In this document: positions 36,781 through 56,064 of the stretch, one piece after another | Layout of the letters: each line of letters starts with the position of its first letter | Position numbering within the stretch: position 1 is the stretch's first letter | IMG/VR virus record: IMGVR_UViG_3300003937_000144 | Location: 30,020 to 94,019 of that record | Strand: one strand, 5' to 3' | DNA: 64,000 bases | DNA from: a virus | Notes under the pieces: generated by a model | What the model was told of the DNA's origin: nothing | Seen by the model: only the letters and a program-made list of their open reading frames with translations | Database searches by the model: none | Program-made: the position numbers and the translations under genes

Positions 36781-37957
36781 ACCATATTGTAAGGCTCCAT
36801 GGGTTGGATTATCTTATGTAGGAACTGAAGGTTGCAAGCCATGTTGTGAATGGAAAGGTGGCCAGTTCTTTGGCACTCATAAAGAATATATTGAATCAGA
36901 TTACTTAAAAGAATTTAAGGAAATGATGTACAATGATGATATGAATGAGGCATGTATAGAATGTATTCATAATGAAAAGATTCAAAAACTAGGCGGGTCG
37001 AGAAGACAGCGGTTCATGAAATATGATATTGATGGTGGATTAGTAAGGTTAGATTTTAGGGCTGGAAATAAATGTAATATGAAATGTAGAATGTGTGGTT
37101 CACATTCATCATCTCTTTGGGAAGACGAAGATAATAAGTGGGGATCAAATGTATATTTAGATCCACCTCATGTTATTCCAAGATTAGATACATCAGATGT
37201 ATATAATATCGATTTCACATCTTTGCAGAAAGTTATGATTCTAGGCGGTGAGCCTTCAGTTGATTTAGAAGTAAGAAAGTTTATAGATCATATTAAACAT
37301 CTAGATTGTTTTGTTGGTATAACTACTAATTGTTCCAACGCATCTGAGAAATGGTTTCGTTCATTAGAAACTATTAAAAAATTAGAGCTTGATTTGTCAA
37401 TAGATGGCTGTGGTCCTGTAGCAGAATATCAAAGGCATGGTGTTACTTGGGATAAGATCAAAACTAATCTATGGAAATATAAAGCATTATTTAATGGAGA
37501 TAAAGGTGCTGTTCAAATAGATGATATTATGTATCACAATTCACTTACGAGGTGGAAAGATGCAAATGGCACATGGGGTGATGCTCATATAAACTTTGCA
37601 GTAACTGCAATTAACTTTCCTATATTAGATACATGGTGGGATGAGTTAATGGATTTTGAAATACAAACATTTTTTAGTGTAGTTCATTTGCCATTGTCAC
37701 ATAGCATAAATGCAATACCAAAAGAATATTTAGATTATCAAATAGCTTGGTTAAAGAAATGGATTGATGACGGTAAAGCAAATAATATTAACCGTAAACA
37801 AGCTGCTGAGATGGCTATAAGTGTAATGGAAAATTCAAAGTATGATCTGTTTTGTCATGAACAATTTGTAAAGATAACAAAAGAATTGGATAAGCGAAGG
37901 GATGAAAATATATATGATTTAGATGAAAGGTTTGAGGATATAATGAATGAAAGATAA
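36770..37957 (+). CDS. Radical SAM enzyme, N-terminal twitch type (#3)
   Basis: CKAPW...PCC...CIEC; CNMKCRMC; LGGEP. Start taken at ATG 36770. Confidence 0.9.
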   Translation: MRTKPYCKAPWVGLSYVGTEGCKPCCEWKGGQFFGTHKEYIESDYLKEFKEMMYNDDMNEACIECIHNEKIQKLGGSRRQRFMKYDIDGGLVRLDFRAGNKCNMKCRMCGSHSSSLWEDEDNKWGSNVYLDPPHVIPRLDTSDVYNIDFTSLQKVMILGGEPSVDLEVRKFIDHIKHLDCFVGITTNCSNASEKWFRSLETIKKLELDLSIDGCGPVAEYQRHGVTWDKIKTNLWKYKALFNGDKGAVQIDDIMYHNSLTRWKDANGTWGDAHINFAVTAINFPILDTWWDELMDFEIQTFFSVVHLPLSHSINAIPKEYLDYQIAWLKKWIDDGKANNINRKQAAEMAISVMENSKYDLFCHEQFVKITKELDKRRDENIYDLDERFEDIMNER

Positions 37958-39149
37958 TGGTGTAATATGCATGTTGCCTTGGGTTCATACCACCGTGAGT
38001 ATGAAAAATACTTTGAGGCCTTGCTGTAGATTTAGAGTGGGTAGAGAAGATGAAGGTATAACCGCTGACTCTGAATCAGATATTAAAGATAAATTTAGAT
38101 GGTTACGTACAGAAATGTTAGCAGGCAGACCTGTAGAGAAGTGTTCATTGTGTTATCAACAAGGTGACAAGTCTATGAAGTGGACAGCTAATAAAGAATT
38201 TGATTTAGAAAATGCAGAGCTTACAGAAGATTTTGATAAGCTAAGGTCAGTAGAATTATCCCTAGATAACCTATGCAATCTTCAATGCAAGATGTGTGAT
38301 TCATTATTCTCAAGTAAGTTATATGATAGGGACAAGTATCTAATAGAGGTACATAATCTTAAAGGTAGAAACCCAACAAAGATACCTAAACAAAGAATTG
38401 AATTCCTCAAGGGCCTTGATATAGATTGGCATGCATTAGAACATATTAAAATTCTTGGTGGTGAACCATTCTTCTCACCTAATTTCCCTAAGCTAATTGA
38501 TTTTCTATTAGAACATTCTGAAGTAAAGAATGTCACATTAGAGATTGTAAGCAACTGTACAAATAGATTAGATCAAGATATGATTGATAAGTTAAATCAA
38601 TTTGGGTTTATAATACTTACATGTTCTCTTGATGGCTGTAATGAATTTAATACATATCAAAGATGGGGTTCACCTGGATGGGAGGAGACATTAGATACCT
38701 ATAAGTGGTATCATACAGTGTTAAACAATATGGTTAAAAAACATATACATTCCACATATACTATTCTTAATTTGTCTGGTCTTGCAAATGATATGAAATA
38801 CTGGGAAAATAATCACCCTGACTGGTCAGTGTCATTTAACTTTGTTACTACAGGTGAATACTCTCCATACATTGTTCCGACATGGTATAGAGATTGGATA
38901 TTAGAACAATGGGGAGATAAAGACAACGAGAGAATAACTTTAGCTCGTAAGATGTTACGAGAAAATCAGATTAAATATAAACCATGGAAGACATGGGGAT
39001 TAGCTATGTTAAAGCTTCATGCCATTGACGGCTATTATGATTCTGAATTAGGTGACTATTGTCCTGATCTAGAAATGTTATTATTAAAACACGATAAGAC
39101 ATATCAACATAATCAATACTATGAAACAATAGAGGACTTTGATGTTTGA
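37947..39149 (+). CDS. Radical SAM enzyme, N-terminal twitch type (#4)
   Basis: CMLPW...PCC...CSLC; CNLQCKMC; LGGEP. Confidence 0.9.
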   Translation: MKDNGVICMLPWVHTTVSMKNTLRPCCRFRVGREDEGITADSESDIKDKFRWLRTEMLAGRPVEKCSLCYQQGDKSMKWTANKEFDLENAELTEDFDKLRSVELSLDNLCNLQCKMCDSLFSSKLYDRDKYLIEVHNLKGRNPTKIPKQRIEFLKGLDIDWHALEHIKILGGEPFFSPNFPKLIDFLLEHSEVKNVTLEIVSNCTNRLDQDMIDKLNQFGFIILTCSLDGCNEFNTYQRWGSPGWEETLDTYKWYHTVLNNMVKKHIHSTYTILNLSGLANDMKYWENNHPDWSVSFNFVTTGEYSPYIVPTWYRDWILEQWGDKDNERITLARKMLRENQIKYKPWKTWGLAMLKLHAIDGYYDSELGDYCPDLEMLLLKHDKTYQHNQYYETIEDFDV

Positions 39150-40248
39150 ATTAGAAACATGCTTAGCTCCACAAGCATCCGTTACAGTAAGTCAAAAAGG
39201 TTATATAGCTCCATGTTGCCAGTTTAATCTTTGGCCGGAAGATGAATGGTTTAGTATATATGATTTAGATTCATTACATGAAGCACATGGTACAGATCGG
39301 TGGAACAAATATGATTCAGAGCTATCTAAATATGATGGCAGTAATAAATGTCGTACATGTATTCGTGAAGAAGAATCAGGGGCACATTCTTTAAGACAGA
39401 CTTGGAATGAAAAGATAAAAAAAGAAGATAAGCATATAGAACATTTAGAAATCTCATTAGACTTTACATGTAATATGATGTGTAGATCTTGTGGACCAAG
39501 TCAAAGTTCTAAATGGAATGGCAGTTCAATACTAGAAGAATTGCAAATGTTAAATATGCCAGATAATGAAGGTGCATATACTGCAATTAAAAACCCTAGA
39601 AATTATCAAGATAATATCAAACGTGTTCTTAGTAATACAGATCTATCGCACTTAAAAGAAGTAACATTAGTAGGTGGTGAACCATTATATTCTAAAAGCT
39701 TACCTTGGTTTCTTAGTTTATTGCATGAAGATGTTCGGCTTATAGTTGTTACTAACGGAAGTTTATTACCATCCGATGAGATGTTTTCTAAATTTAAATA
39801 TGTTAAATTCCAAGTATCTATTGATGCTATTGGAGATTTAGGAACTGCAATGAGAATGAAAGTTCCATTTGAAACCATTGATAAAAACATTAGACAGATG
39901 ATAAAGAAATATCATATTGGTGTCCACACAACCATTTCTGTACAGAATATAAATAGACTATACGAGCTTGATAAATATTGTGTAAATTTAGGACAGGAGA
40001 AGGTACAACATAGCGTTGCATTGCTGCACGATCCTTCATATATGAGAATAGATATCATACCTCTTGAAATTAGAATGAAGTGGTTAACTGATAATAAGGA
40101 AATAAATCCGTATTTAAATATGCCATATAGAGAATCAATAAGTGATGTGCAACACTTTTTAGAAAATATGGAAATAATGGATGATGAATCATCAATTAAA
40201 TTTAAAGATGCTAACCCAGAAATAATGGATATACTAAATGAAATGTAG
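39139..40248 (+). CDS. Radical SAM enzyme, N-terminal twitch type (#5)
   Basis: CLAP...PCC...CRTC; CNMMCRSC; VGGEP; VTNGS. Confidence 0.9.
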   Translation: MMFELETCLAPQASVTVSQKGYIAPCCQFNLWPEDEWFSIYDLDSLHEAHGTDRWNKYDSELSKYDGSNKCRTCIREEESGAHSLRQTWNEKIKKEDKHIEHLEISLDFTCNMMCRSCGPSQSSKWNGSSILEELQMLNMPDNEGAYTAIKNPRNYQDNIKRVLSNTDLSHLKEVTLVGGEPLYSKSLPWFLSLLHEDVRLIVVTNGSLLPSDEMFSKFKYVKFQVSIDAIGDLGTAMRMKVPFETIDKNIRQMIKKYHIGVHTTISVQNINRLYELDKYCVNLGQEKVQHSVALLHDPSYMRIDIIPLEIRMKWLTDNKEINPYLNMPYRESISDVQHFLENMEIMDDESSIKFKDANPEIMDILNEM

Positions 40249-41431
40249 AATGGCATGGTCGCACTTAGACTTTAAGAAGGGAGGATATGCTCCCTGTTAT
40301 AGGTTTAAAAATTATGCTGGATATTGGGATCACTCTAGTGATGATAAGCTTCCATCTCAAGTAATAAATAATTCAGATTTTATATCTGTTAGAAGACAAC
40401 TACGTAATAACCAATGGCCCAAAGGTTGTATCGATTGTAAACGTCAAGAGTCAGAAGGTATGTCCTCATATAGAACTCGTTCATTGGAAGAAGAGGATGA
40501 TGTTAATCGTACCAATAAAGTATTTACTCCTGTAGATTATGATAGTGACACTGCTGTAATAAAAGATTTACAATTAAAAATGTCGCGAGCATGTAATTAT
40601 AATTGCAGACATTGTGACTCAGCATCTAACTCTTCATTTGAAAAACTAGGTCATCAATTTCCTGAGATAGAGAATGAATTAAAAACTAAATATGAATTTA
40701 ATCACATATCAATGGCAGGTAATAATAAAATTGTTATACCAACCGATGAAGTTATGGATGATCTATTTGAAAATATTATGCCTACTGTTGAACAACTTGA
40801 ATTTTCTGGCGGTGAACCATTTTATCAACATGAAATGTATAAGACATTACAGAGATTGATTGATGGTGATTTTGCTAAGAATATAACATTAGTGTTTAAT
40901 ACTAATATGAGTATATTAGAGCATAAGAAATATAAGATAGCAGATTATCTGCCTCACTTTAAAACAGTTAATATCACATGTTCTATGGATGGTACAGGTA
41001 AACTGTTTGATTACTTTAGAGTTGGTGGAGACTATAATAATGTTATAAATAATATTAAAGAGATTGCACCATTAGTAGATACATTTTTATTCGTATGTAC
41101 AACAAGTGCATATCATGCCTTCTATATGAATGAAATATATAATGATCTAACTGAATTGCAAAACTCTATTAAAACAAAATCATCTATAAGATCAACGTTT
41201 GTACATTGGCCTAAAGCGTTAGATATTATTAATTTAGAAGAAGATGTTAAAAGTAAAATTATGGAAACATTAGAAGTGAATGAGTTTACTAAAGAGTTTG
41301 CTATACGAATGACTCAATCTAAAGGCGAAATTGAGCCTTGCTTTAAAGGATTAGTAAAGACTCAAGATCTATTATATGATAAATCATGCCAAGAAATGGC
41401 TCCTAAAATTTGGGATTATATATGCAGTTAA
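40238..41431 (+). CDS. Radical SAM enzyme, N-terminal twitch type (#6)
   Basis: CRMAW...PCY...CIDC; CNYNCRHC; SGGEP. Confidence 0.9.
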   Translation: MKCRMAWSHLDFKKGGYAPCYRFKNYAGYWDHSSDDKLPSQVINNSDFISVRRQLRNNQWPKGCIDCKRQESEGMSSYRTRSLEEEDDVNRTNKVFTPVDYDSDTAVIKDLQLKMSRACNYNCRHCDSASNSSFEKLGHQFPEIENELKTKYEFNHISMAGNNKIVIPTDEVMDDLFENIMPTVEQLEFSGGEPFYQHEMYKTLQRLIDGDFAKNITLVFNTNMSILEHKKYKIADYLPHFKTVNITCSMDGTGKLFDYFRVGGDYNNVINNIKEIAPLVDTFLFVCTTSAYHAFYMNEIYNDLTELQNSIKTKSSIRSTFVHWPKALDIINLEEDVKSKIMETLEVNEFTKEFAIRMTQSKGEIEPCFKGLVKTQDLLYDKSCQEMAPKIWDYICS

Positions 41432-42600
41432 CTATTGAAGTAACATCTAATTGTCAAGCTCAATGCCCTGGTTGTATTCGTAAGAATGTTATAAACCCAA
41501 CTACTGGAGAAATAGGTTATACTAAAGGTGTTCCTAAGAATGTTAACATGACCCTTGAAGCACACAATAGATTAATAGATGAGGCAGGAGAAGATTTAAA
41601 TTGGGTAAGTTATGACGGTGGATTCGGTGATTCACCATTGCATCCAGACTTTTTAGATATGATAAGACATGTTGTGTCTAAACCACAAATGCAAATCGTT
41701 GCTATATCAACCAATGGAAGTTATCAAACCGAAGAATTTTGGTTTGAGTTAGGACAGATACTTAATGAAAATCAACCACATGACCCAGAATATTTCGGTG
41801 ACTTACCACGAATGGAGAGAGGCCATTTAGTATTTTGGGATTTAGATGGTGTTGATAATGAAACACAAAATAAATATAGGGTTAAAACAAATTTTGATAG
41901 GATCATCCGTAATGCTAAAGCTTATATAGCTGGTGGTGGTTATGCTGTATGGAAGATGATTCCATTTGACTTCAATGAAGAATTAGAAGAGCGTGGAATG
42001 GAGTTAGCTAAAGAGCATGGCTTTGCTGAGTTTAGAAGAACACGTGTACATAGAGTAGAACAACAAGCAACGTTAATGGCATTAGCTGAAAAGCAAGGAC
42101 AAGACTTAGGAGATCTTAACGATGGTGAAATAGACAGGGCTGATCCAGCTGACATTAAAGAAAATATAGAAAAAGCTCAAACATTAATACAAGAGATTCC
42201 AATAGATCCTTATAAATCTCCACGAGAAAATATGGCGGTAGCTAAAGAGAAAGCTGGCATTACATGTAAGTGGGCAAACGATACTCCTGGTGGTAATTAC
42301 CAAGTAAGCCATGATGGTTCTGTATGGAGATGTTGTTGGCATAACTCAGCCTATCAATTTAGAACGAGATTAAATAGTGGTGATAGAGATGGGTGGGAAA
42401 GGTTTATACAATTCTATGCGGATGACTGGAATAACATATATACTAATAGCTTCCAAGAAATTATAACTCATCCGTTTTTTACAGAAGATTTGTATGAAAG
42501 TTTTGATAATGATTATGATGATCCTATTAATCCGAAGTTAAAGGTATGCACTAACAGGTGCTCTAATTTAAATTTACAAGAAAGTGAGAGGTTTTGCTAA
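41422..42600 (+). CDS. Radical SAM enzyme with C-terminal SPASM/twitch domain (#7)
   Basis: CQAQCPGC; GGFGDSP; STNGS; C...DGSVWRCC...CTNRC. Confidence 0.88.
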   Translation: MQLTIEVTSNCQAQCPGCIRKNVINPTTGEIGYTKGVPKNVNMTLEAHNRLIDEAGEDLNWVSYDGGFGDSPLHPDFLDMIRHVVSKPQMQIVAISTNGSYQTEEFWFELGQILNENQPHDPEYFGDLPRMERGHLVFWDLDGVDNETQNKYRVKTNFDRIIRNAKAYIAGGGYAVWKMIPFDFNEELEERGMELAKEHGFAEFRRTRVHRVEQQATLMALAEKQGQDLGDLNDGEIDRADPADIKENIEKAQTLIQEIPIDPYKSPRENMAVAKEKAGITCKWANDTPGGNYQVSHDGSVWRCCWHNSAYQFRTRLNSGDRDGWERFIQFYADDWNNIYTNSFQEIITHPFFTEDLYESFDNDYDDPINPKLKVCTNRCSNLNLQESERFC

Positions 42601-42602
42601 TG

Positions 42603-43499
42603 ATAAAAGATAAAAGTATAATATATAATAAAGATGAAATAGTTGAAGAATGGAATATAGAATTAAATTTAGACTATGACCATTTATTAGTTGGCATGTC
42701 AGGAGGAATGGATTCATCTATTCTATATTGGATGATGGCCTATCATATGGATAAGAATAATTTAAGTGGAACACTACATGCATATTCATGTATCCATGAA
42801 GAGAGACCATGGCAAGCACATCACGCTAAGAAAGTAATTAAATATGTGAAAGAACAATTTCCTAATATTAAATATGGAGTACATACAATTGCGACTACGC
42901 CTGGAACATCTTATATTGATAATGGTACTGCACTACAATGGAAGACAAGCTATGAGTTAGCGCAAAGCGATGGTGGAACTGTAGCTACGTATAATGGTGT
43001 GACACTTAACCCACCAGACGAATTAGGTAAATATATATGGCGACACTCATGGGGTAGACGTGCTGTCGGAAGAGATGTATCTACACTTGACAAATGGGAA
43101 AAGGTTGATGGTGAACAGATAGAACATAACAACGAAGATTTTTTTGTGAAGGCTGGTTTACATTGGGAAGAAGATGGTTCGCTTGTACATTGGGGAACAA
43201 ATGATGAAGAGCAGGAACAAGCAGCGAGAGATCATAACGAATATCATATTCAGCATTATCCATTTTGTACTCAAGATAAACGTGTAGTACTTGCATTCTA
43301 TAAGAAGTATGGACAATTAATATCTTTAGGAGAATTAACTAATTCATGTGAGGGTCATATTAGTATGAGAGGTGATCCTAAATATTCCAAGCCTTGTCAT
43401 TGGTGTTGGTGGTGTATAGAAAAAGAATGGGCTACAAGCGAAATCTTTCACTATGATCCAATAAAGAGTATGGAAGACTGGCCAGCATTTCATAACTAA
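42603..43499 (+). CDS. QueC-like PP-loop ATPase with C-terminal Zn site
   Basis: LVGMSGGMDSS; LTNSCEG...PCHWCWWCIEK; paralogue of 34718-35398. Start approximate (42594-42603). Confidence 0.78.
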   Translation: MKDKSIIYNKDEIVEEWNIELNLDYDHLLVGMSGGMDSSILYWMMAYHMDKNNLSGTLHAYSCIHEERPWQAHHAKKVIKYVKEQFPNIKYGVHTIATTPGTSYIDNGTALQWKTSYELAQSDGGTVATYNGVTLNPPDELGKYIWRHSWGRRAVGRDVSTLDKWEKVDGEQIEHNNEDFFVKAGLHWEEDGSLVHWGTNDEEQEQAARDHNEYHIQHYPFCTQDKRVVLAFYKKYGQLISLGELTNSCEGHISMRGDPKYSKPCHWCWWCIEKEWATSEIFHYDPIKSMEDWPAFHN

Positions 43500-44548
43500 T
43501 GTATAGCTACTCTGACATAAGACAGGTTCATCTTGAGCCGACGCAGAAGTGTCAGGCTAGATGTCCTATGTGTGATAGGAATGAAAACGGTGGTAAAGAT
43601 AATAAGTATCTAACTAATGCCGACCTATCCTTAATGGATATAAAAATGATTATGCCTAAAGAATTTGTAAGGCAACTTGATAATCTCTATATGTGTGGTA
43701 ATCATGGTGACCCTATGATGGCACCCGAAGCATTAGAAATATGTAAATGGTTAAAGGAAGTAAACCCAAAGATTAGACTTGCAATGAATACAAATGGTGG
43801 TGCAAGAAGACCAACATGGTGGGCAGAGCTAGCACAAGTTATTGACCATGTAACATTCTCTGTTGATGGTCTTGATGATACTAATCATCTATATAGACAA
43901 GGAGTAACTTGGGAAAGAGTTGAAGCTAATATGCATGCGTTCTGTAGAGCTGGTGGTAATGCTAAATGGGAATTTTTAGTATTCAAACATAATGAACATC
44001 AACTGGAAGAGGCCGAATTATGGTCAAAGACACTAGGGGTAAAAACGTTTAGCGTAAAGAAATCAGGTAGATATATTTCTAGCGCTACTTTAAAAAAGAA
44101 AGATTCACATCAAGCAAAGGATAGACATGAACAACACACACAACTCTTGGAGCCACCTACTATGGCGCGCTTTAAGAACGCCGCAAGTAAAGACTTTGAT
44201 AATATCACTGCTAAATTTGGCAACATGGATTCTTATTTGGATGTGGCTGACATAGAACCGAAATGTATAAAGAAGAAAGAAATATATATTTCAGCTGAGG
44301 GATATGTATTCCCTTGTTGTTGGACCGCTGGTCAAATGTATAAATGGTGGCAAAAACCAGGTGAGGCACAGATATGGGAACACATAGATCAGTACGATAT
44401 TAATGGAATCACTACACCTATAGAAGAAATTATAAATACTTTTTTTAATTCAATAGAGGAAGCATGGGAAGTTGGGCCGGACCGATTAAAGGTTTGTGCT
44501 CTCAAATGTAATAAAGCATTTGACCCATTCGCAGCACAATGGCAGTAA
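43499..44548 (+). CDS. Radical SAM enzyme with C-terminal SPASM/twitch domain (#8)
   Basis: CQARCPMC; CGNHGDP; NTNGG; C...EGYVFPCC...CALKC. Confidence 0.92.
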   Translation: MYSYSDIRQVHLEPTQKCQARCPMCDRNENGGKDNKYLTNADLSLMDIKMIMPKEFVRQLDNLYMCGNHGDPMMAPEALEICKWLKEVNPKIRLAMNTNGGARRPTWWAELAQVIDHVTFSVDGLDDTNHLYRQGVTWERVEANMHAFCRAGGNAKWEFLVFKHNEHQLEEAELWSKTLGVKTFSVKKSGRYISSATLKKKDSHQAKDRHEQHTQLLEPPTMARFKNAASKDFDNITAKFGNMDSYLDVADIEPKCIKKKEIYISAEGYVFPCCWTAGQMYKWWQKPGEAQIWEHIDQYDINGITTPIEEIINTFFNSIEEAWEVGPDRLKVCALKCNKAFDPFAAQWQ

Positions 44549-45207
44549 TAGCATGGACGCCTGGAATGGGTGGTGATATGATTCGCACATGTCTTATGTG
44601 TTTGACAACTCCTGGTAAATGGGAATATAAACCTGCTCGTCCTGAATTTTATGAAGAGAATAAACTGGCTTTACACTTTCAAGGATTTTGGGATGTATTA
44701 TATCTTGATAATAAGTTTGTAAGCTTTATTGATTGGAGAGGACAAGCGCAAACAAAATTAGGTGAAGGAACTATACATGGTGCACATTATATTGAATCAA
44801 ACCAAGATACAATAGATAATGTTATGGATTCTGGTAAAGGTCATGTAACCTTTATAACTGTTAATGATATACGTTATTTAAAGTTAGCACAAAAGAATTG
44901 GTTAATGAAGTCTAGTGTTACAGATGGAGATAAGAATAGTATAGCTTGGTGGGACAATGAATATGAAAAAGCATTTATTAGGCGGCAGCAAATATATGAA
45001 CCTAATAAGAGTTTATTTGATTTGGGTGATAGAAAGCATTGTTTCTGGATGGATACAATTTATAAATGGGAATCATTTAAACAAGAGCTAGATAATTATA
45101 TAGGCTTTTATGATATACCATTTGAAGAAAGACAATATAAGAATTGGGATATAGTACAAAAATTTTGGCAGGAATGGATGGATGCGCAAAGGTTACCATG
45201 GCAATAG
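44539..45207 (+). CDS. Hypothetical protein (Gly-rich loop, sulfotransferase-like), paralogue A
   Basis: IAWTPGMGGDMIRTCL; shares FID.xGQ, YLxLAQxNW, GDRKH and FWQEWxD with the next ORF. Confidence 0.55.
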   Translation: MAVIAWTPGMGGDMIRTCLMCLTTPGKWEYKPARPEFYEENKLALHFQGFWDVLYLDNKFVSFIDWRGQAQTKLGEGTIHGAHYIESNQDTIDNVMDSGKGHVTFITVNDIRYLKLAQKNWLMKSSVTDGDKNSIAWWDNEYEKAFIRRQQIYEPNKSLFDLGDRKHCFWMDTIYKWESFKQELDNYIGFYDIPFEERQYKNWDIVQKFWQEWMDAQRLPWQ

Positions 45208-46004
45208 GAAATAAAATAGTTTTATCTTGGCCTCCTGGTACAGGCGGGGATTTTGTACGGTCTTGTCTATATGTAATTATGCATCATGGTAATTGGGAAT
45301 ACAGGCAATGGGAAGAACATGAAGAACCTATTGACGGCTGGACTGAGATTAGTGCTGATCCATATCCTAAGGCTCTAGTATGGAATAATAATCTTATATC
45401 TTTTATTGATTACAAAGGACAAGTACAGTCACCTGTTATGTGGAAACATTTTAGATGGAATGAATTTCTTGAGGGCAAGAAAAATGAATTAGGTATTACT
45501 GCTTTAAAAGCAGATTTATATAGACTTGTATTTTGTATTCATAAGCGTCATCATACAGAAACTAATGTTGACCAATTAATGGAAATTCAGAATGAAGCAT
45601 ATAGACTTGATGATTTAAACCCAGTCGTTACATATATTTGTGCCAAGGATACTAAGTATCTTAGGTTAGCACAAGAAAATTGGAATTTAAAAACTCATGA
45701 ATATAATCATTATATTGCTAATCAAGAAATAAATTGGTGGGATACAGCGCTAGCTGAGACTATTGATTGGAGAGATAGAAACCCAGAGAAAATTAATCAT
45801 ACTTTATTTGAGTTTGGTGATAGAAAACATATGATGTTTATGGATAGCTTTTTTGAATGGGAAACATTCAGACAAGAATTAGAATGGTTTAGGGGGTTTT
45901 ATCATAACGCAGGTTGTATGCCAGTGCAAAATGATGCCCATTGGTATGTAGTTAAACAATTTTGGCAGGAATGGATAGATGGACAAAAACTTAAAGTGGA
46001 GTGA
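45198..46004 (+). CDS. Hypothetical protein, paralogue B
   Basis: LSWPPGTGGDFVRSCL; tandem paralogue of 44539. Start taken at ATG 45198. Confidence 0.55.
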   Translation: MAIGNKIVLSWPPGTGGDFVRSCLYVIMHHGNWEYRQWEEHEEPIDGWTEISADPYPKALVWNNNLISFIDYKGQVQSPVMWKHFRWNEFLEGKKNELGITALKADLYRLVFCIHKRHHTETNVDQLMEIQNEAYRLDDLNPVVTYICAKDTKYLRLAQENWNLKTHEYNHYIANQEINWWDTALAETIDWRDRNPEKINHTLFEFGDRKHMMFMDSFFEWETFRQELEWFRGFYHNAGCMPVQNDAHWYVVKQFWQEWIDGQKLKVE

Positions 46005-47109
46005 GTATGACTTCGGTCAAATACCTTTCGACGATATAGAGCATTTTGGCACACGTTCTATGCTGGATAGGGACACGTTTACAGTATCTTGGTTACTAGG
46101 AAGATTCTGTAATTACCGTTGTTCTTATTGTTGGCCTTATGCTAGGTCAGATAAGAAAGACCATAGACCACTTAAAGCAACTATAGGAACTATTAATGAA
46201 ATCAAAAGACAAGCAAGAGAAAGAGGATTTAATTCGTTTCACTTCTCACTTTCGGGAGGCGAACCGACATTTCATCCGCAGTACCTCGATATTGTACAGC
46301 ATCTTAATAATGATGTTCCTAATTGTAATTTTCATTCCCTTCACATGACCTCAAATGTTTCTCGACCAATACAATGGTTTGAGAAATATTATCAAGCCTC
46401 AAAGGATATGCATAGAGTATCTATTACAGCTTCTTACCATAGGGAACATGTCAATACTCCAAAGAAGGTTATTGAGTTTGCAGACAAATTAGAATTTTGT
46501 CAAGAACATAATATACAGATTACTATTAATATAGTTATGGTACCTGAATTCTTTGAACAATTTTATGAGGAGGCATTATACTTTCATGATCGTGGTATTA
46601 ATGTAACGCTTAAACCTCAGAGTGATCCGACAGCTTCATTCGTTGTAGATGGATATACAGATGAACAGTTAAAGACTCTACATAATGGAATGCCTCAAAG
46701 GGGATATACTCAGGAAAAATCTACAGTAGAAAGACCTCATTATAAATGGAGAGATGCTGCGGTAGATAATAAGTATGGCAAAGTACCTGCCCACTTTGAA
46801 ATAGAATTCACTGACAAGTACGGGAAGAAATGGTATATGGATCAAGCAGAAAGATTCAATGCCTTTAACTTTAATAACTTTAATGGATGGGAATGCTCAT
46901 CAGGTTATAGAAGTATTATTATACGTGAACCAGATGGTACAATCAAAAGAAGTTATTCTTGTCATGATGAACCATTAGGTCAAATAGAAACTGGGTTTAA
47001 GTTATATGATGGACCCAAGATATGTACAACAAGCGCATGTGTATCTTCAGCTGATAGCAAGATACCTAAACGCAAACCAGGAAATATGATACCATTATGG
47101 ACAGTGTAG
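45979..47109 (+). CDS. Radical SAM enzyme with C-terminal Cys cluster (#9)
   Basis: CNYRCSYC; SGGEPT; WECSSG...SYSC...ICTTSACVSSAD. Confidence 0.92.
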   Translation: MDKNLKWSEYDFGQIPFDDIEHFGTRSMLDRDTFTVSWLLGRFCNYRCSYCWPYARSDKKDHRPLKATIGTINEIKRQARERGFNSFHFSLSGGEPTFHPQYLDIVQHLNNDVPNCNFHSLHMTSNVSRPIQWFEKYYQASKDMHRVSITASYHREHVNTPKKVIEFADKLEFCQEHNIQITINIVMVPEFFEQFYEEALYFHDRGINVTLKPQSDPTASFVVDGYTDEQLKTLHNGMPQRGYTQEKSTVERPHYKWRDAAVDNKYGKVPAHFEIEFTDKYGKKWYMDQAERFNAFNFNNFNGWECSSGYRSIIIREPDGTIKRSYSCHDEPLGQIETGFKLYDGPKICTTSACVSSADSKIPKRKPGNMIPLWTV

Positions 47110-49997: not shown

Positions 49998-50803
49998 AAA
50001 AATCCCAATGGGTAGATGTACCTATGTCAGAAGATGTTTGGCATCTCCTGAAAGAACAACGTGTATCTGAAACTTATTACAACCGTGGGTCAGGTAAAGC
50101 CACACAAGAATTAGAATGGCTTGAGGCAACACATAGAAACTGGGTTCATGAGATTACTGACTTAAGTGACTTCCCATACTGTTATGTTACTAATGGTACA
50201 ACAGATGCAATCCATCATTGGTTACAAACAGAAGATCGTCAATGGCAATACATTAAAGGCGACTATGAATACCCTAATATAATCGATGCTGGTACAGAGA
50301 TAGAACATTCATATTTTATTGACCCGCATAAAGTATTATACCTATCTAATCCATTTGCTGGTGATGGTATGTTTAGAGATGTAGAAGTTGATTGCCCTGT
50401 TATATTAGACTGTACATATGTGTCTAGTACTGCTATACAAAGAATACACATACCAAAAAATACTGAACAAGTTATGTTTAGTTTCTCAAAAGGATTTGGT
50501 ATGATAGGAAACAGATGTGGTTTAGTCTATACAAAGAAACCTCATAAGACATTGCACTTATTAAAAGAATTTGAGAATTGGAATTATGCCAATGTTAAAA
50601 CTATGCATCTTGTTATGAGTAACTTTACTGTTGATGAGATGTTCCATGAAAATAGAGAAAGGCAATTAGAGCTATGTCAAGAATATAGCTTAGTACCAGC
50701 TGATGTTTTTTTCCTTGCCCAGAGTGGTGATAAATATTATAAAAGGAGAAGACGAATGCACGACAGTCCAACAGCAAGGCTTTGCTTAACACCTCTATGG
50801 TAG
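49979..50803 (+). CDS. Fold-type I PLP-dependent enzyme (aminotransferase-like)
   Basis: TNGTTDAI, YLSNP, ILDCTY and FSFSKGFGMIGNRCG (PLP lysine). Confidence 0.78.
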   Translation: MEKETLKKSQWVDVPMSEDVWHLLKEQRVSETYYNRGSGKATQELEWLEATHRNWVHEITDLSDFPYCYVTNGTTDAIHHWLQTEDRQWQYIKGDYEYPNIIDAGTEIEHSYFIDPHKVLYLSNPFAGDGMFRDVEVDCPVILDCTYVSSTAIQRIHIPKNTEQVMFSFSKGFGMIGNRCGLVYTKKPHKTLHLLKEFENWNYANVKTMHLVMSNFTVDEMFHENRERQLELCQEYSLVPADVFFLAQSGDKYYKRRRRMHDSPTARLCLTPLW

Positions 50804-51729
50804 TACCAACTTATTTAGGATTATCTCTATCTGAATTAAATCCAGATAATATAGCTGAGTTAATTGGTAAAGCAGGTGTAGTTGTTATACGTGATAGTGG
50901 AGCAACGCCCGAAGAATATGCTGAATGGTCATTAGGTTTAGGTTATCATTTAAGCCCAGAGATATGGTGTACAGATAAAGAACATTCTAATTTGTTTTGG
51001 ACTGTAACTAATGAGATGATGGATGATAGGAACCAAGGATTATTTGGTGACTATGAATTAGATTGGCATACAAACATGACACCAGTCGCTGATGCAGAAG
51101 AAGTGATAGGCTTATATGCTAAGACGATTACTTATGAAACTGAGACTTGGTTTGCTAATTCAATACCATACTTTAATCAATTACCTGAATCAGAACAAGA
51201 AAGATTGAGAGCCTTAACCGTTGTACTTGACCCTAAAAGAACATTAGGGGTTTATCAGGCAGCTTGGCAACCTGCATTTAAAAAGATATATGGTCAAGAA
51301 GTTCTTGATGAGATTAATAAGAATAGAAATACTCGTGAAGTATTCAATAGTATTAATATGGAACCTGAGAATAAAGAAAAGTTTGGGGCGAGTAGAGGTA
51401 TAATGAATAATCATAGGCTTGTAGTTAATCACCCAATAAAAGGTGTTGAGGGTTTATTCTTTAGTCCATATGAAGTGCATGGATTTTTAAAAGATGGTAA
51501 ACCTTATTATGGAGCAGAGTCATTATATTGGAAGTTATGGAATGATTATGTATGTAATGATAGATACATATATAAACATACGTGGCAAGAAGGTGATATA
51601 TGTTTGTTTGATAATATAATAGGAATACACAGAAGACCAGATATACTTAAAGATAAACCAAGAAAATTATTACGTACAGCTAAATGGTATAAGTCACATA
51701 TGAGGAGACACCATGATTATGTTGTATAA
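50797..51729 (+). CDS. TauD/TfdA-family dioxygenase (HxN variant)
   Basis: ELDWHTN, ETWFAN, HTWQEGDICLFDNIIGIHRR and RKLLR. Confidence 0.85.
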   Translation: MVVPTYLGLSLSELNPDNIAELIGKAGVVVIRDSGATPEEYAEWSLGLGYHLSPEIWCTDKEHSNLFWTVTNEMMDDRNQGLFGDYELDWHTNMTPVADAEEVIGLYAKTITYETETWFANSIPYFNQLPESEQERLRALTVVLDPKRTLGVYQAAWQPAFKKIYGQEVLDEINKNRNTREVFNSINMEPENKEKFGASRGIMNNHRLVVNHPIKGVEGLFFSPYEVHGFLKDGKPYYGAESLYWKLWNDYVCNDRYIYKHTWQEGDICLFDNIIGIHRRPDILKDKPRKLLRTAKWYKSHMRRHHDYVV

Positions 51730-51732
51730 ATA
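51725..51732 (+). promoter_or_regulatory. T4-type late promoter
   Basis: TATAAATA 5 nt before ATG 51738. Confidence 0.8.
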
Positions 51733-51737
51733 TAACT

Positions 51738-52373
51738 ATGGAAGCAAGAACAAAATATAAATTACCGACACATGGTGAATTAAAGCATATCGATATAGAT
51801 CTTGATAAGCTTCAAGCAGCAACAGATAAATTAGCTGCCGAATATGTCGATGTCAAGACCGCTAATAAAATGTTATGTGATAATCATATGGCATTGAGTA
51901 AATCTGTATACGATAACTTTATGCAAATAAACTTAACTGAATTTGGTGGTGATAAAGAATTAAAATATACAGATAGTATAAAAGAGCGTCTTCGTAGAGG
52001 TGAAGAAAAATTATATAATAAGCCTAACGACAAATATATAGGAAGTTACTTTGAAGAAATAACTAGCCAATTTAAATGTGATAAGATGAGAGTTCGTATC
52101 ACTAAACTTGATCCTGGTACTGATGTACCTATGCATATTGACTATGACCCTACCTATGCAACTAGAGTTGTCATACCAGTATACACAAACCCTAAAGTTA
52201 AAAATAGATTTAAGGTTAGAGGTGAAGAAGTTGAAACACATTTAGAAGCAGGCAAAGCATATTTCTTTAATACCGGTTTTGCTCATGGAGTATTTAATGA
52301 GAGTGATGAACCACGTATAGCCTTTATGTTTAGCTTAGATGGACAAGATGATATAACTGATATAAAATTATAA
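51738..52373 (+). CDS. Asp/Asn beta-hydroxylase-like 2OG-Fe(II) oxygenase
   Basis: RVRITKLDPG..PMHIDYD...RVVIPVYTN...FNTGFAHGVFNESDEPRI. Confidence 0.8.
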   Translation: MEARTKYKLPTHGELKHIDIDLDKLQAATDKLAAEYVDVKTANKMLCDNHMALSKSVYDNFMQINLTEFGGDKELKYTDSIKERLRRGEEKLYNKPNDKYIGSYFEEITSQFKCDKMRVRITKLDPGTDVPMHIDYDPTYATRVVIPVYTNPKVKNRFKVRGEEVETHLEAGKAYFFNTGFAHGVFNESDEPRIAFMFSLDGQDDITDIKL

Positions 52374-52374
52374 T

Positions 52375-53022
52375 ATGAATTTAGATATTGAGCACTACGT
52401 CTATAAGGCGAAATGGATTGACGACTCTATTTGTGATGAAGCCATTAAAGTACTTAATGAGGAAAACACCTGGCTACCATTCCCTAAAGATGTAATCAAT
52501 GCATATCCCGATGCTCCAAGAGCACAAGACGGTATTAAAGGATCTACACTCAGTATTGATTGGGCACAATTCTTAGGTGATCCTAGTATACCTGAACAAG
52601 ATAGAAATTATGGTTTAGCCCATTTAAAAAATCAAGATGTATTAAATAAAGTTAGATCTTGTATGAAGGCAGGATTAGATAATTATATTCACGAATATAT
52701 GAAGGACATAGAGTGGTATGATTACTATACAGACTTTACTGATCCTAAATTTATGAAGTATACTGAAAGTAATGACATGATGGAACATTGCGATCATGTA
52801 AGATATATATTTGATGGTAAAAAGAAAGGCATTCCTACAGTTTCTATTGTAGGTAATTTAGGTGATGACTTTGAAGGTGGTGCAATAAGATTTTGGGATA
52901 AGACAGATTACTATATGAAAAAAGGTGAGCTAATGTTTTTTCCTAGTAATTTTTTGTATCCTCATAGGGTTAGAACAACAACTAAAGGTTTAAGATATTC
53001 TCTTGTGAGTTGGGTATGGTAA
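52375..53022 (+). CDS. Prolyl-4-hydroxylase-like 2OG-Fe(II) oxygenase
   Basis: HCD, DDFEGG and FPSNFLYPHRV...GLRYSLVSW. Confidence 0.88.
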   Translation: MNLDIEHYVYKAKWIDDSICDEAIKVLNEENTWLPFPKDVINAYPDAPRAQDGIKGSTLSIDWAQFLGDPSIPEQDRNYGLAHLKNQDVLNKVRSCMKAGLDNYIHEYMKDIEWYDYYTDFTDPKFMKYTESNDMMEHCDHVRYIFDGKKKGIPTVSIVGNLGDDFEGGAIRFWDKTDYYMKKGELMFFPSNFLYPHRVRTTTKGLRYSLVSWVW

Positions 53023-53834
53023 ATATATTAGATTATACTGACAAGCAGTTTAAAGAATTAGCAAAGAAAATTATTCAAGATGGTTCAGTAGTACTCCATG
53101 ACCAAAACCTAACACGAGAACAACACGTTGAAGCATGTGCACGTTTTGGTGAACTCGAGAAACAAAGTTATTGGATGAATCCTAAAGACACCCCTGAAAT
53201 TAGTATTGTATCTGGTCAAGTTGACAAAGAGGGTAATGCTATTGGTATGTTCAGAGATCAGGAATTAGAGTGGCATGTTAATGGTGCAGGTAGACATAAG
53301 TTAACAGAATATTGTGTATCATTATATTGTGTAGAGGAATGTGTAGATACTGTATTATCAATATGTAATTGGACTGATATGTTTGCTGATCTATCCGAAG
53401 AACAAAAAGATTATTATAGAAGCATTGATGTTCATTTAGATGGAGCAGGTGTAAGCTTATGGCCCAATAGTAATTATAGAGGTAGAGAGGGTGAGTTTAA
53501 TGTAAGCAATGAATATTATAAAGAAGTTATTCAAGATGATGATAGACGACCACTTGTTGGTAAGCACCCAATAGATGGTAGAGAATATCTATATTTTCTA
53601 ATTCAATATTTAAAAGAAGCATATATAGGTGATAAGCAATTAGACATCGATGAATTTTATGCTGACCTATGGCCGAAAGTATTTAGGTCGAAGTATATGT
53701 TTCATCATGTATTCAGGAGAGGTGACCTACTCTTTATGGACCAATTACACACAATACATAGGAGATCGCCGATACACTTTATGGACAGAATGTTATGGAG
53801 GACAGCGTTTGACTACTCAAATATTAAATTTTAG
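53016..53834 (+). CDS. TauD/TfdA-family dioxygenase (HxN variant), tandem copy 1
   Basis: ELEWHVNG, PLVGKHPIDGREYLYF and GDLLFMDQLHTIHRRSP...RMLWR. Confidence 0.85.
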   Translation: MVNILDYTDKQFKELAKKIIQDGSVVLHDQNLTREQHVEACARFGELEKQSYWMNPKDTPEISIVSGQVDKEGNAIGMFRDQELEWHVNGAGRHKLTEYCVSLYCVEECVDTVLSICNWTDMFADLSEEQKDYYRSIDVHLDGAGVSLWPNSNYRGREGEFNVSNEYYKEVIQDDDRRPLVGKHPIDGREYLYFLIQYLKEAYIGDKQLDIDEFYADLWPKVFRSKYMFHHVFRRGDLLFMDQLHTIHRRSPIHFMDRMLWRTAFDYSNIKF

Positions 53835-54639
53835 TGATGAACAATTAAAAGACTTAGCTGAAGAACTTATTGCAAAGGGCCATGTTATACTTTACGATCA
53901 GGTTATGACCATGGACCAATATGTTGAAGTGTGTAATCGCATAGGTAATTGTGAGTATTATAATTACTTTATGAATCCACCTGAAAGGCCAGAGATTAGT
54001 TTTGTGTCAGGTGAGAGAGATGAGAACGGTAAAGTCTTAGGTGTCTTTGGTGATAGCGAATTACAGTGGCATGCAAATGGTGTAGCTCGTCATAAGTTTG
54101 ACCAAATAATTGTATCATTATATTGTGTAGAGGAATGTATAGACACAGTGCTTTCTATATGTAATCAATGTGATGCGTTTGCTGAATTATCTGAAAGAGA
54201 TAAGGAAAGATTTAGAAAGATTGATATACAGCTTGATGATAAAAAAGATGCTATATATAAAATGTCTGACCATGATTTACCTGATCATCCAGCAAGAGAA
54301 CGTGAAATTAAAACTGGCGCTGAATTTTATAAAGAAGATGTAGATAGACGGCCTTTAGTAGGTAAGCATCCGATAGATGGTAGAGAATATTTATATTTTA
54401 TGGTACCATATATAGTTGGTGCATTTGAGAATGGAGAACGAATTAATCATGAAGCTTTATATGAAGAACTATGGGAAAAGTTATTTAATTCAAGAAATAT
54501 GAAACATCATGTATTTAGGAAAGGCGATTTATTGCTTATGGACCAGTTACATACAACTCATAGGAGATCGCCCGTTAAAAGAAAAATAAGAAAATTATGG
54601 AGGTGTGCATTTGACTATTCAAATATCGACTTTACCTAG
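53809..54639 (+). CDS. TauD/TfdA-family dioxygenase (HxN variant), tandem copy 2
   Basis: ELQWHANG and DQLHTTHRRSP. TTG start at 53809 after GGAGG, aligning with the copy-1 N-terminus. Confidence 0.85.
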   Translation: MTTQILNFSDEQLKDLAEELIAKGHVILYDQVMTMDQYVEVCNRIGNCEYYNYFMNPPERPEISFVSGERDENGKVLGVFGDSELQWHANGVARHKFDQIIVSLYCVEECIDTVLSICNQCDAFAELSERDKERFRKIDIQLDDKKDAIYKMSDHDLPDHPAREREIKTGAEFYKEDVDRRPLVGKHPIDGREYLYFMVPYIVGAFENGERINHEALYEELWEKLFNSRNMKHHVFRKGDLLLMDQLHTTHRRSPVKRKIRKLWRCAFDYSNIDFT

Positions 54640-55402
54640 AGATAGACTTAAGTGGGAACTAACTAAAACCCAAATAGCAGGTCATAGTATATGGTATGAC
54701 CAAGGATTAGATGCTAATGGTTTAACAGAATTCATGAATTCAATTGGTGAATGTGAATGCCCTGACCTATTCATGAACCCTAAGAATACACCTGAGATCT
54801 TTATAGTCACTGGTAAGAAGGATAAGCATGGTAAGAAGCTTGGCATGTTTGGTGATACTGAACTTGGTTGGCACTCTAATGGTAACTCAAGACACAACGT
54901 TGATAAAATATTAATTGCTTTATATTGCGTTGAAGAAGATGATAATACTTGTTTGTCTATATGTAATACAACTCGACCATTCCAGGCTTTAACAGATGAA
55001 CAACAAGAATACTATAGAGATATTACAATTAAACTCAAATTTAAAAATAATACTATATATAATTTAGAAGAAGGTGATCCAGAATTAGAATTCATGGAAG
55101 CTAGCAAAGGATCTATACGTAAATTAATAGGTAGGCATCCACATACTGGCCAAGAGTATTTCTATTTTCCATATCATTTTATAGAGAGAGTTTGGTATAA
55201 GAAAAAGAAAATTGACGGTAATAAACTTATACAAGAGTTGAAGCAGGTTATATTTAAATCACAATACCAAACACATCACATATTTAAAAAGGGCGATCTA
55301 TTATTAATGGATCAATTTACTTCGTTACATAGGAGGACTCCAGTGTATGACAATAATAGATTACTATGGAGAGTTGCCTGTGACTATAGGAAGATAATGT
55401 GA
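54611..55402 (+). CDS. TauD/TfdA-family dioxygenase (HxN variant), tandem copy 3
   Basis: ELGWHSNG and DQFTSLHRRTP. TTG start at 54611 after GGAGG. Confidence 0.85.
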   Translation: MTIQISTLPRDRLKWELTKTQIAGHSIWYDQGLDANGLTEFMNSIGECECPDLFMNPKNTPEIFIVTGKKDKHGKKLGMFGDTELGWHSNGNSRHNVDKILIALYCVEEDDNTCLSICNTTRPFQALTDEQQEYYRDITIKLKFKNNTIYNLEEGDPELEFMEASKGSIRKLIGRHPHTGQEYFYFPYHFIERVWYKKKKIDGNKLIQELKQVIFKSQYQTHHIFKKGDLLLMDQFTSLHRRTPVYDNNRLLWRVACDYRKIM

Positions 55403-56064
55403 AAAAAATAGTTGCTGTAGCATTTAGTTATGCAGAAAATTCTATGAACATGAGAGGCTTAACCCTCATGGATGAATTGTTATTTTTTGATGGCCAATAT
55501 GATATGAATGATTTTAATATGCCTCTTTGTAATTCAAATAAATCAGATGGAAATGTTCCAGAAGGTGTGAATAAATTCATAAAGGTTATGAGAGATGCTG
55601 ACATATTAGTGTTTGCTATACCTGAAGCTACAGGACATTATGCGGCTGCGTTCAAGAATGCAATGGATTGGTTAATATGTGAGTCTAAGTTTAATAGTGA
55701 TATTGCAGTTGATGGTGCATTTTATAATAAACCAGTATGGGTTGTAACATTCACTCCTGTGATTCCCGCGGTAACTCCGGGTGAAAGTTATGAGATAGGT
55801 GCTGGAGGCCGACACTTTGAAATGACAAGACACCTATTAAATGAGAAGATGGGTGGAGCTGTGCATCAAGAGATGTTTGTGTTTAATGATGGATGGCAAC
55901 ATTGCAGACCAGGAAATGTTGATTGGGTAAGAGATGCTTGTAATGAAATACTAAGAGCAATAGATTTTGATCCTGGTGAAAGGGCACCATCATATTCTAT
56001 GAAGGATAGACCAGTAAAGTGGCTTAAACGATACGAAGAGTGGGATGCTTCATGGAAGGAATAG
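55399..56064 (+). CDS. NAD(P)H-dependent FMN reductase (flavodoxin fold)
   Basis: ADILVFAIPEATGHYAAAFKNAMDW and NKPV resemble the PEYN..LKNAIDW signature. Confidence 0.8.
   Translation: MKKIVAVAFSYAENSMNMRGLTLMDELLFFDGQYDMNDFNMPLCNSNKSDGNVPEGVNKFIKVMRDADILVFAIPEATGHYAAAFKNAMDWLICESKFNSDIAVDGAFYNKPVWVVTFTPVIPAVTPGESYEIGAGGRHFEMTRHLLNEKMGGAVHQEMFVFNDGWQHCRPGNVDWVRDACNEILRAIDFDPGERAPSYSMKDRPVKWLKRYEEWDASWKE

What the first reader, a model, noticed from the sequence alone, without database searches (positions are those of the whole stretch)
50797..55402. All four TauD-like dioxygenases replace the iron-binding carboxylate with Asn (HxN)
Seen: WHTN, WHVN, WHAN and WHSN at the position of the canonical HxD, with the distal His and Arg retained (D(N/Q)xxxxHRR...R). 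Established: TauD/TfdA enzymes use a 2-His-1-carboxylate triad, and loss of the carboxylate (to Ala/Gly) marks Fe/2OG halogenases. Inference: conservation across four diverged paralogues points to a distinct subfamily with altered metal coordination and possibly non-hydroxylating chemistry (halogenation, desaturation, cyclisation).
Basis: partly seen in the sequence, partly recalled or inferred. Interest (0 to 1): 0.75.

Follow-up and report, generated by a model that had tools for sequence, protein, structure and literature searches.

The report
Phage TauD oxygenases with His-x-Asn site
Four neighbouring genes of a marine SAR11-type phage encode iron/2-oxoglutarate oxygenase look-alikes in which the usual iron-binding aspartate is an asparagine, and this is the conserved hallmark of a large, almost wholly uncultured, mostly viral branch of the TauD family whose chemistry nobody has tested.

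Summary
Observation confirmed. Four TauD-family (PF02668) paralogues carry W-H-x-N exactly where TauD/RdpA/ScoE carry W-H-x-D. The distal His and both Arg (equivalents of TauD R266 and R270) are kept.

It is not chance.
- All 239 full-length database homologues of paralogues A and B (49-99% identity) have Asn.
- All 22 paralogues on related viral contigs have Asn, encoded by both AAT and AAC.
- Among the nearest 121 full-length 50%-identity cluster representatives: N 79, D 30, A 8, H 2, G 1, C 1.
- Rooted on cellular sequences, a 111-member clade has Asn as its parsimony root state, with at least 13-14 well-supported N/D switches.
- 71 of 71 cellular (Pseudomonadota) TauD homologues closest to the clade profile have Asp.

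No acidic column tracks the Asn state. No curated family, solved structure or paper in the searched library describes HxN in an Fe/2OG enzyme.

The window is a pelagimyophage. The genes lie in its hypervariable "host recognition cluster", among radical SAM and other oxygenase genes. Pelagibacter phage Mosig is the only cultured carrier found.

A distinct subfamily is shown. Altered coordination is plausible, with the 2-His-1-Gln site of methylphosphonate synthase as precedent. Non-hydroxylating chemistry is untested.

The parts
50782..51729 (+). TauD paralogue A (315 aa from TTG 50782; the gene call on record probably starts at ATG 50797). WHTN with H96/N98, distal H283, R285, R294, R298.
   Evidence: PF02668 89 bits; motif coordinates; Atlas holds it from residue 6; 120/120 homologues have WHxN
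51073..51075 (+). Asn98 codon (AAC) of A, at the position of the iron-binding Asp
   Evidence: no variant in two DNA runs; unchanged in an RNA-library contig
51738..52373 (+). Asp_Arg_Hydrox-type cupin oxygenase between A and B; keeps HxD (MHIDYD)
   Evidence: PF05118 38 bits; sequence
52375..53022 (+). 2OG-FeII_Oxy_3 (prolyl-hydroxylase-like) oxygenase; keeps HxD (EHCDH)
   Evidence: PF13640 40 bits; sequence
53010..53834 (+). TauD paralogue B (274 aa). WHVN with H89/N91, distal H250, R252, R260, R264.
   Evidence: PF02668 73 bits; AF2 pLDDT 90; Foldseek hits to the TauD fold; 119/119 homologues have WHxN
53280..53282 (+). Asn91 codon (AAT) of B
   Evidence: the orthologue in L005 uses AAC
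53809..54639 (+). TauD paralogue C (276 aa from TTG 53809 behind GGAGGA; the mechanical ORF begins at 53650 and overlaps B). WHAN with H88/N90, distal H251, R253, R261, R265.
   Evidence: PF02668 69 bits; start reasoned; coordinates
54076..54078 (+). Asn90 codon (AAT) of C
   Evidence: covered unchanged by an RNA-library contig
54605..55402 (+). TauD paralogue D (265 aa). WHSN with H90/N92, distal H242, R244, R252, R256. 65% identical to the Mosig phage protein.
   Evidence: PF02668 66 bits
54878..54880 (+). Asn92 codon (AAT) of D
   Evidence: orthologues in L005-L007 use AAC
55399..56064 (+). NADPH-dependent FMN reductase-like gene directly downstream; also next to the TauD gene region in phage Mosig
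   Evidence: PF03358 56 bits; Mosig annotation

Best explanation
The four genes are members of a large, mostly viral, marine clade of the TauD/TfdA family. In this clade the carboxylate of the 2-His-1-carboxylate triad is replaced by Asn as a selected, ancestral trait.

Shown: the fold, both His, the 2-oxoglutarate-binding Arg and the substrate-anion Arg are all kept. Asn is held by purifying selection.

Inferred: they are working Fe(II)/2-oxoglutarate oxygenases. In them the Asn side-chain carbonyl oxygen, or a water it holds, takes the place of the Asp oxygen. That would give a neutral 2-His-1-amide site with one more positive charge at the iron.

Inferred: the Asn/Asp choice tunes reactivity or reaction outcome, as Gln versus Glu does in methylphosphonate synthase versus HEPD. 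It does not abolish activity.

Inferred from context: the enzymes act on anionic small molecules or glycan precursors made or altered by the phage's host-recognition-cluster enzymes (radical SAM, aminotransferase, methyltransferases, other oxygenases).
For: Family and register.

Selection for Asn: 239/239 homologues at 49-99% identity. 22/22 paralogues in viral loci, with both AAT and AAC codons. No variant at the four codons in two marine DNA runs, although nearby sites vary.

Catalytic apparatus kept: W, H, N, H, R, R, R are invariant in 46 diverse HxN sequences. Both His are present in every representative that covers them.

The position stays in the metal's first shell. Only N, D, H and C (ligand-capable) or A and G (vacancy) occur. 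S, T, K, I and Y never occur, although each is one base away from AAY.

Isosteric exchange: at least 13-14 N/D switches are forced by well-supported branches, 25 changes in all, in both the FastTree and the IQ-TREE trees. The root state of the 111-member clade is N when rooted on cellular sequences.

No compensating acid.

Precedent for an amide ligand: 2-His-1-Gln in methylphosphonate synthase (PMC11978286). Asn ligands in lipoxygenases are from my own knowledge.

Context: a syntenic island in Pelagibacter phage Mosig and the pelagimyophage host recognition cluster (PMC7029224).
Against: No biochemical, metal-content or coordinate-level evidence was obtained. The structure tool returns no coordinates, so the Asn-to-metal distance and possible distant carboxylates could not be checked.

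In other 2OG oxygenases, loss of the carboxylate usually kills activity (prolyl 4-hydroxylase: PMC2767507, title and abstract).

HxA and HxG members in the same clade show that a protein ligand at this place is not always needed, so Asn might not bind the metal either.

Substrate and pathway are unknown. The RNA-library contigs do not prove transcription.
Confidence: 0.55

Rival explanations
1. A 2-His site with an open position. Asn does not ligate the iron. It lines a pocket for an exogenous anion (chloride or bromide, as in Fe/2OG halogenases), for a ligand from the substrate, or for water (as in AspH). That would give halogenation or other non-hydroxylating chemistry.
For: HxA (8), HxG (1) and HxC (1) members sit inside the same clade. 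All members have an extra Arg two residues after the distal His, on the His-facing side of the strand, and so a more positive pocket that would favour an anion. The habitat is halide-rich seawater. AspH works with two His only (abstracts).
Against: Known halogenases use small Ala or Gly to make room. Asn is as large as Asp. The commonest exchange partner of Asn in the tree is Asp, not Ala or Gly. The Arg at H+2 is equally present in the Asp-type members. No halide or carrier-protein partner is evident nearby.
Confidence: 0.2
2. Non-catalytic or non-redox proteins. The loss of the carboxylate marks pseudoenzymes or 2-oxoglutarate/metabolite binders that no longer activate oxygen.
For: Carboxylate loss inactivates several model 2OG oxygenases (PMC2767507). 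No function is known for any member. No curated family covers them.
Against: Both His, the 2OG Arg and the substrate Arg are invariant over very deep divergence (mean column identity 23% in A2). The position itself admits only ligand-capable or vacancy residues. Repeated returns to Asp are hard to explain if the metal site were dispensable. Phage genomes rarely keep two to four copies of dead genes.
Confidence: 0.12
3. Latent carboxylate. Asn, followed by Gly in B, C and D, deamidates after translation to Asp or isoAsp, so the mature enzyme has an ordinary triad.
For: Asn-Gly is the most deamidation-prone dipeptide (own knowledge). 119/119 B-type homologues have N-G.
Against: A-type homologues have N-M/V/I/L (120/120). 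Gly follows Asp just as often in Asp-type members, and the Gly does not track the Asn state (2.0 against 2.3 pairs). Selection for Asn over a one-base change to Asp would be pointless if Asp were the working form.
Confidence: 0.03

Closest known systems
TauD/TfdA family Fe(II)/2-oxoglutarate dioxygenases (TauD, RdpA/SdpA/AAD-1, AtsK, ScoE/SfaA, CarC)
   Same: Pfam PF02668 over the cut-off. The same double-stranded beta-helix fold (TM about 0.7). Proximal His, distal His, 2OG-binding Arg and substrate-anion Arg align.
   Different: Asn in place of the Asp/Glu ligand. Arg instead of Ala/Gly two residues after the distal His. 'DQ' instead of 'DN' before it. Only 15-20% identity to any solved structure. 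All NCBIfam equivalog scores are far below their cut-offs.
Fe/2OG halogenases (SyrB2, WelO5, BesD: HxA/HxG)
   Same: The carboxylate of the triad is missing, while both His and 2OG binding are kept.
   Different: The replacement is a ligand-capable Asn of the size of Asp, not a small residue that opens a halide site. Different subfamilies. HxA and HxG relatives exist in this clade but are a minority (9 of 121).
Methylphosphonate synthase (MPnS), 2-His-1-Gln triad
   Same: A neutral carboxamide stands where relatives (HEPD) have a carboxylate. The enzyme is active, and the swap changes the reaction outcome. It is also a marine, SAR11-associated enzyme (PMC11978286; the rest is my own knowledge of Born et al. 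2017).
   Different: MPnS is 2OG-independent, from a different cupin family, and uses Gln rather than Asn. No sequence relation was seen here (it is absent from the PDB hits).
Aspartate/asparagine beta-hydroxylase AspH (two-His iron site)
   Same: An active 2OG oxygenase without a carboxylate ligand (abstracts).
   Different: AspH has no side-chain ligand at that place, belongs to another family (PF05118) and acts on proteins. The window's own PF05118 genes keep HxD.

Membership tests
TauD/TfdA family (PF02668) | Sequence match to the family model above the curated cut-off | tested here: met
   66-89 bits against a 27-bit cut-off for all four
TauD/TfdA family (PF02668) | TauD-type double-stranded beta-helix fold | tested here: met
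   AF2 model of B has pLDDT 90 and pTM 0.89. Foldseek E about 1e-16 to 1e-13 and TM about 0.7 to SfaA, ScoE, TauD and RdpA.
TauD/TfdA family (PF02668) | [quoted passage not shown] | tested here: not met
   Both His are present. The carboxylate position is Asn in all four. No Asn-specific acidic column elsewhere.
TauD/TfdA family (PF02668) | Arg that binds the 2OG C5 carboxylate, 10-11 residues after the distal His, and a second Arg four residues later (TauD R266 and R270) | tested here: met
   Invariant R260 and R264 (B numbering) in 46 sequences. Aligned to the RdpA Arg pair.
TauD/TfdA family (PF02668) | Fe(II)- and 2OG-dependent substrate oxidation | not testable with these tools
   Needs protein expression and assay
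Fe/2OG halogenases | Ala or Gly at the carboxylate position, leaving a halide site | tested here: not met
   Asn in A-D and in 239/239 close homologues. Ala or Gly occurs only in other members of the clade.
Fe/2OG halogenases | Halide bound to iron and a halogenated product | not testable with these tools
   Needs a structure or assay with chloride or bromide
2-His-1-amide non-heme iron oxygenases (MPnS type) | Carboxamide side chain at the third triad position | tested here: met
   Asn stands at the aligned Asp position. Whether it binds the metal is not shown.
2-His-1-amide non-heme iron oxygenases (MPnS type) | Homology to MPnS/HEPD | tested here: not met
   No MPnS or HEPD chain among the 37 PDB sequence hits of the clade profile. 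Resemblance in mechanism only.

The most novel reading that the evidence does not exclude
A natural, catalytically competent 2-His-1-Asn iron site in Fe(II)/2-oxoglutarate oxygenases. It would be ancestral to a large marine-phage clade and repeatedly toggled with Asp (and occasionally Ala, Gly or His) to change reactivity or product. It would be a third natural solution for the facial triad in this superfamily, beside the carboxylate and the halogenase vacancy. Pelagimyophages would use it to modify host-surface or virion-associated molecules.
Probability: 0.4. Interest if true: 0.8.

Novelty: new variant of a known kind. Interest (0 to 1): 0.66.

Why it matters
The 2-His-1-carboxylate triad is the textbook signature of Fe/2OG oxygenases. 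The discovery that halogenases lack the carboxylate opened a field. A widespread, selected Asn variant would give bioinorganic chemists a natural series (Asn, Asp, Ala, Gly and His sisters at under 50% divergence). With it they could ask how the charge of the third ligand tunes oxygen activation and product choice.

It would also warn annotators that 'taurine dioxygenase' labels on hundreds of marine viral proteins are unsafe.

Biologically, the genes sit in two to four copies in the host recognition cluster of phages that infect SAR11, the most abundant marine bacteria. Near-identical DNA occurs in at least 11 independent marine metagenome studies. Whatever they make is likely to matter for infection in the ocean.

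Tried and rejected
- A genome-contig scan with P0276 found no cellular relative. This is a weak negative from a pattern-based scan.
- The 46-sequence alignment was too diverse for the search for related loci.
'of' needs a G handle.
- Literature searches for HxN, 2-His-1-Asn, an Asn ligand and TauD D101 variants gave nothing relevant. The 2013 review of atypical iron sites does not mention Asn. This library lacks most subscription journals, so absence is not proof.
- A compensating carboxylate was rejected at sequence level. That includes the residue two before the proximal His, which is acidic in 52% of Asn-type and 60% of Asp-type sequences.
- Second-shell covariation (V67, V102 and F81 of B, trimmed numbering) trends with Asn but is not significant (median p 0.06-0.2).
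- The Asn-Gly deamidation idea does not fit the A-type.
- Transcription: contigs from oligo-dT RNA libraries cover parts of all four genes, but DNA carry-over cannot be excluded.
- Joints between paralogues in DNA contigs (for example 53041 to 54095) were not interpreted.
- The structure tools return no coordinates, so the metal-site geometry of the model could not be measured.
Full report
WHAT IS THERE. The window is part of a 94-kb IMG/VR virus record. The record comes from a T4-like myovirus, with baseplate wedge, tail tube and fibre genes. Its only relative among 50,697 deposited phage genomes for these genes is Pelagibacter phage Mosig EXVC030M.

From about 33 to 60 kb, a tightly packed + strand island holds:
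- about nine radical SAM genes, a PP-loop gene and a desaturase-like gene;
- an Asp_Arg_Hydrox cupin and a 2OG-FeII_Oxy_3 oxygenase;
- an FMN reductase, a methyltransferase-like gene and a nitroreductase.

This matches the hypervariable 'host recognition cluster' described for pelagimyophages, which carries radical SAM cassettes (PMC7029224). Mosig has a syntenic set.

Inside the island lie four PF02668 (TauD) genes: A 50782/50797-51729, B 53010-53834, C 53809-54639 and D 54605-55402. C's mechanical ORF starts at 53650 inside B. A TTG at 53809 behind GGAGGA gives a protein collinear with B and D. A is 24-28% identical to the others, B and C are 53% identical, and B and D 38%.

All four read W-H-x-N (WHTN, WHVN, WHAN, WHSN), and later D-x5-H-R-R...R-x3-R.

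The register was checked in three ways.
- Pairwise phmmer alignments place the motif on 'nWHtDst' of RdpA.
- A profile of 46 diverse HxN sequences aligns over its full length with RdpA/AAD-1, ScoE/SfaA and TauD (E about 1e-25 to 1e-22). 'dWHsNg' lies over 'dWHtDs', the distal His over theirs, and the two Arg over theirs.
- An AlphaFold2 model of B (pLDDT 90, pTM 0.89) has the TauD fold. Foldseek gives TM about 0.7 and 15-20% identity to SfaA, ScoE, TauD, RdpA and PlaO1.

In the same island, the two oxygenases of other families keep an ordinary HxD. The Asn is therefore not a quirk of this genome.

IT IS SELECTED, NOT CHANCE. All 119 full-length database homologues of B (51-99% identity) and all 120 of A (49-96%) have WHxN.

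Eight related viral contigs carry arrays of two to four paralogues. All 22 have WHxN, and orthologues use both AAT and AAC for the Asn. This is synonymous change with the residue kept, although GAY (Asp) is one base away.

Near-identical DNA occurs in at least 11 marine metagenome studies. In two of them no variant touches the four Asn codons, although neighbouring sites vary. Contigs from RNA libraries read the codons unchanged. This is weak evidence, being contigs only.

HOW FAR IT REACHES. A profile search of 1.84 billion cluster representatives gave 1969 hits at E<1e-3 and 413 at E<1e-10.

Of the best 150 hits, 121 are full length. Their residue at the carboxylate position is N 79, D 30, A 8, H 2, G 1, C 1. 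Both His and the Arg pair are present in every one.

FastTree and IQ-TREE agree on 25 state changes. At least 13-14 N/D switches are forced by branches with 95% support or more. Examples are the sister pairs P0140(N)/P0169(D) and P0122(N)/P0126(D), and A+P0124 (N) next to three Asp sequences.

BACKGROUND. I searched 401 evenly drawn Pseudomonadota genomes with the HxN-clade profile. 94 genomes had matches (best 147 bits; E. coli TauD scores 80). All 71 best cellular matches that I fetched have HxD. One of these, L092, comes from the unpublished genome G384. Without it the count is 70 of 70.

In a joint tree the cellular sequences fall on one side of a 99%-supported branch, together with a few Asp-type metagenomic ones. 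The remaining 111 representatives (N 78, D 21, other 12) form the other side. Rooted on the cellular side, their Fitch root state is Asn.

The ESM Atlas clusters nearest to A and B are 68-98% viral. No NCBIfam model reaches its cut-off, and PHROGs gives only weak hits.

So HxN marks a real, large, mainly viral marine clade. It is not a feature of ordinary TauD hydroxylases. The backbone of the tree is weakly supported. The top-150 sample was drawn with an HxN profile, so the exact proportions are soft.

IS THERE A SUBSTITUTE CARBOXYLATE? Comparing Asn-type and Asp-type members column by column, the only near-universal acids are the two of the 'GD...D(Q/N)' stretch. These are equally conserved in both types and in canonical TauD.

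No column is acidic specifically in the Asn type. With 14 phylogenetically independent N/D pairs, the best candidate goes the same way in 4.0 pairs and the other way in 1.7 (p about 0.6). The residue two before the proximal His is E, D, Q and G in B, A, C and D respectively.

Coordinates would be needed to exclude it fully.

HOW IT MOST LIKELY WORKS. Shown: the family, the fold, the intact 2OG site and strong selection on Asn. The rest of this section is inferred.

Three observations point to Asn acting in the first coordination shell.
- Asn is isosteric with Asp and exchanges with it repeatedly.
- The position admits only ligand-capable residues (N, D, H, C) or vacancy residues (A, G). It never shows S, T, K, I or Y, although each is one mutational step from Asn.
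- Both His stay invariant.

The simplest reading is that the Asn carbonyl oxygen, or a water it positions, replaces the Asp oxygen. That would give a neutral third ligand and a more positively charged, more electrophilic iron centre.

A carboxamide in a facial triad has a precedent in the 2-His-1-Gln site of methylphosphonate synthase (PMC11978286). From my own knowledge, Gln versus Glu there decides the product. Also from my own knowledge, Asn ligates iron in lipoxygenases.

Strict conservation within subfamilies, together with switching between them, suggests that the Asn/Asp choice is tied to substrate or reaction type and is not neutral.

All clade members, of both Asn and Asp type, also have Arg two residues after the distal His. 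Canonical enzymes have Ala or Gly there. They also keep the TauD R270 equivalent. This argues for an anionic substrate.

The substrate is unknown. The genomic company suggests small-molecule or glycan tailoring linked to host recognition: radical SAM enzymes, an aminotransferase-like gene, methyltransferases and an FMN reductase. In Mosig the island also holds a carbamoyltransferase and an N-acetyltransferase.

RIVALS.
- An open 2-His site that takes a halide or a substrate ligand remains possible. HxA and HxG relatives exist, the pocket is positive and the habitat is seawater. It is less likely, given the size of Asn and its exchange with Asp.
- A pseudoenzyme reading conflicts with the deep conservation of every other catalytic residue and with the repeated returns to Asp.
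- Deamidation of Asn-Gly to Asp fails for the A-type (N-M/V/I/L), and the Gly does not track the Asn state.

COMPARISON AND NOVELTY. By sequence and fold these are members of PF02668, but they fail one defining feature, the carboxylate. They are not halogenase-like at that position.

I found no paper in the searchable library that describes HxN in an Fe/2OG enzyme. The pelagimyophage genomics paper does not discuss these genes. That library omits most subscription journals, so prior description cannot be excluded.

I class the finding as a new variant of a known kind. The clade and its signature are well supported. The coordination chemistry is a testable hypothesis.

LIMITS. Cellular sampling was restricted to one phylum. 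The taxonomy of most clade members is unknown.

Noticed in passing
P0144, P0175, P0198, P0192, P0259, P0244, P0261, P0263 (HxA); P0227 (HxG); P0168, P0204 (HxH); P0262 (HxC): Within the same metagenomic clade, some members have Ala or Gly (halogenase-like or AspH-like), His (a possible 3-His site) or Cys at the carboxylate position. One well-supported group of six is all HxA/HxC.
   Followed up: partly
window 53739-53801 (B), and the same motif in A, C and D: Clade signature beside HxN: the distal His is followed by [RK]-R, with Arg at H+2 where TauD and RdpA have Ala or Gly. 'DQ' replaces the family's 'DN' six residues before the His. Among the 31 best-scoring cellular Pseudomonadota matches whose motifs were listed, only two had H-R-R.
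   Followed up: partly
window 25405-26025: A 206-aa ORF between fibre genes reads GWHDNRD...FHCAM. It has no Pfam or PHROG match, so its fold and register are unverified.
   Followed up: partly
window 53650-53834: The mechanical ORF of paralogue C overlaps B by 185 bases. A TTG at 53809, preceded by GGAGGA at 53797-53802, is the likely real start, giving a 26-base overlap with B.
   Followed up: yes
window 33298-47109: Nine ORFs match Radical_SAM (one also SPASM, at its N-terminus). A PP-loop ORF lies at 42594-43499. This agrees with the radical SAM cassettes reported in pelagimyophage host recognition clusters.
   Followed up: partly
window 53041-54095 and 53212-54845: Marine DNA contigs from two studies join across these points, skipping 1053 and 1632 bases. 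Related viral loci carry two, three or four paralogues. The paralogue number therefore seems to vary between phage populations.
   Followed up: no
L001 (Pelagibacter phage Mosig, MT647606.1 56484-57293): The gene annotated 'putative taurine catabolism dioxygenase' of this cultured phage reads WHSN. It is 65% identical to paralogue D and is a ready experimental entry point.
   Followed up: yes
window 50782-55402: At least 94% of the sampled words of this stretch occur in contigs of 14 DNA runs from at least 11 marine metagenome studies, so this phage lineage is widespread.
   Followed up: partly
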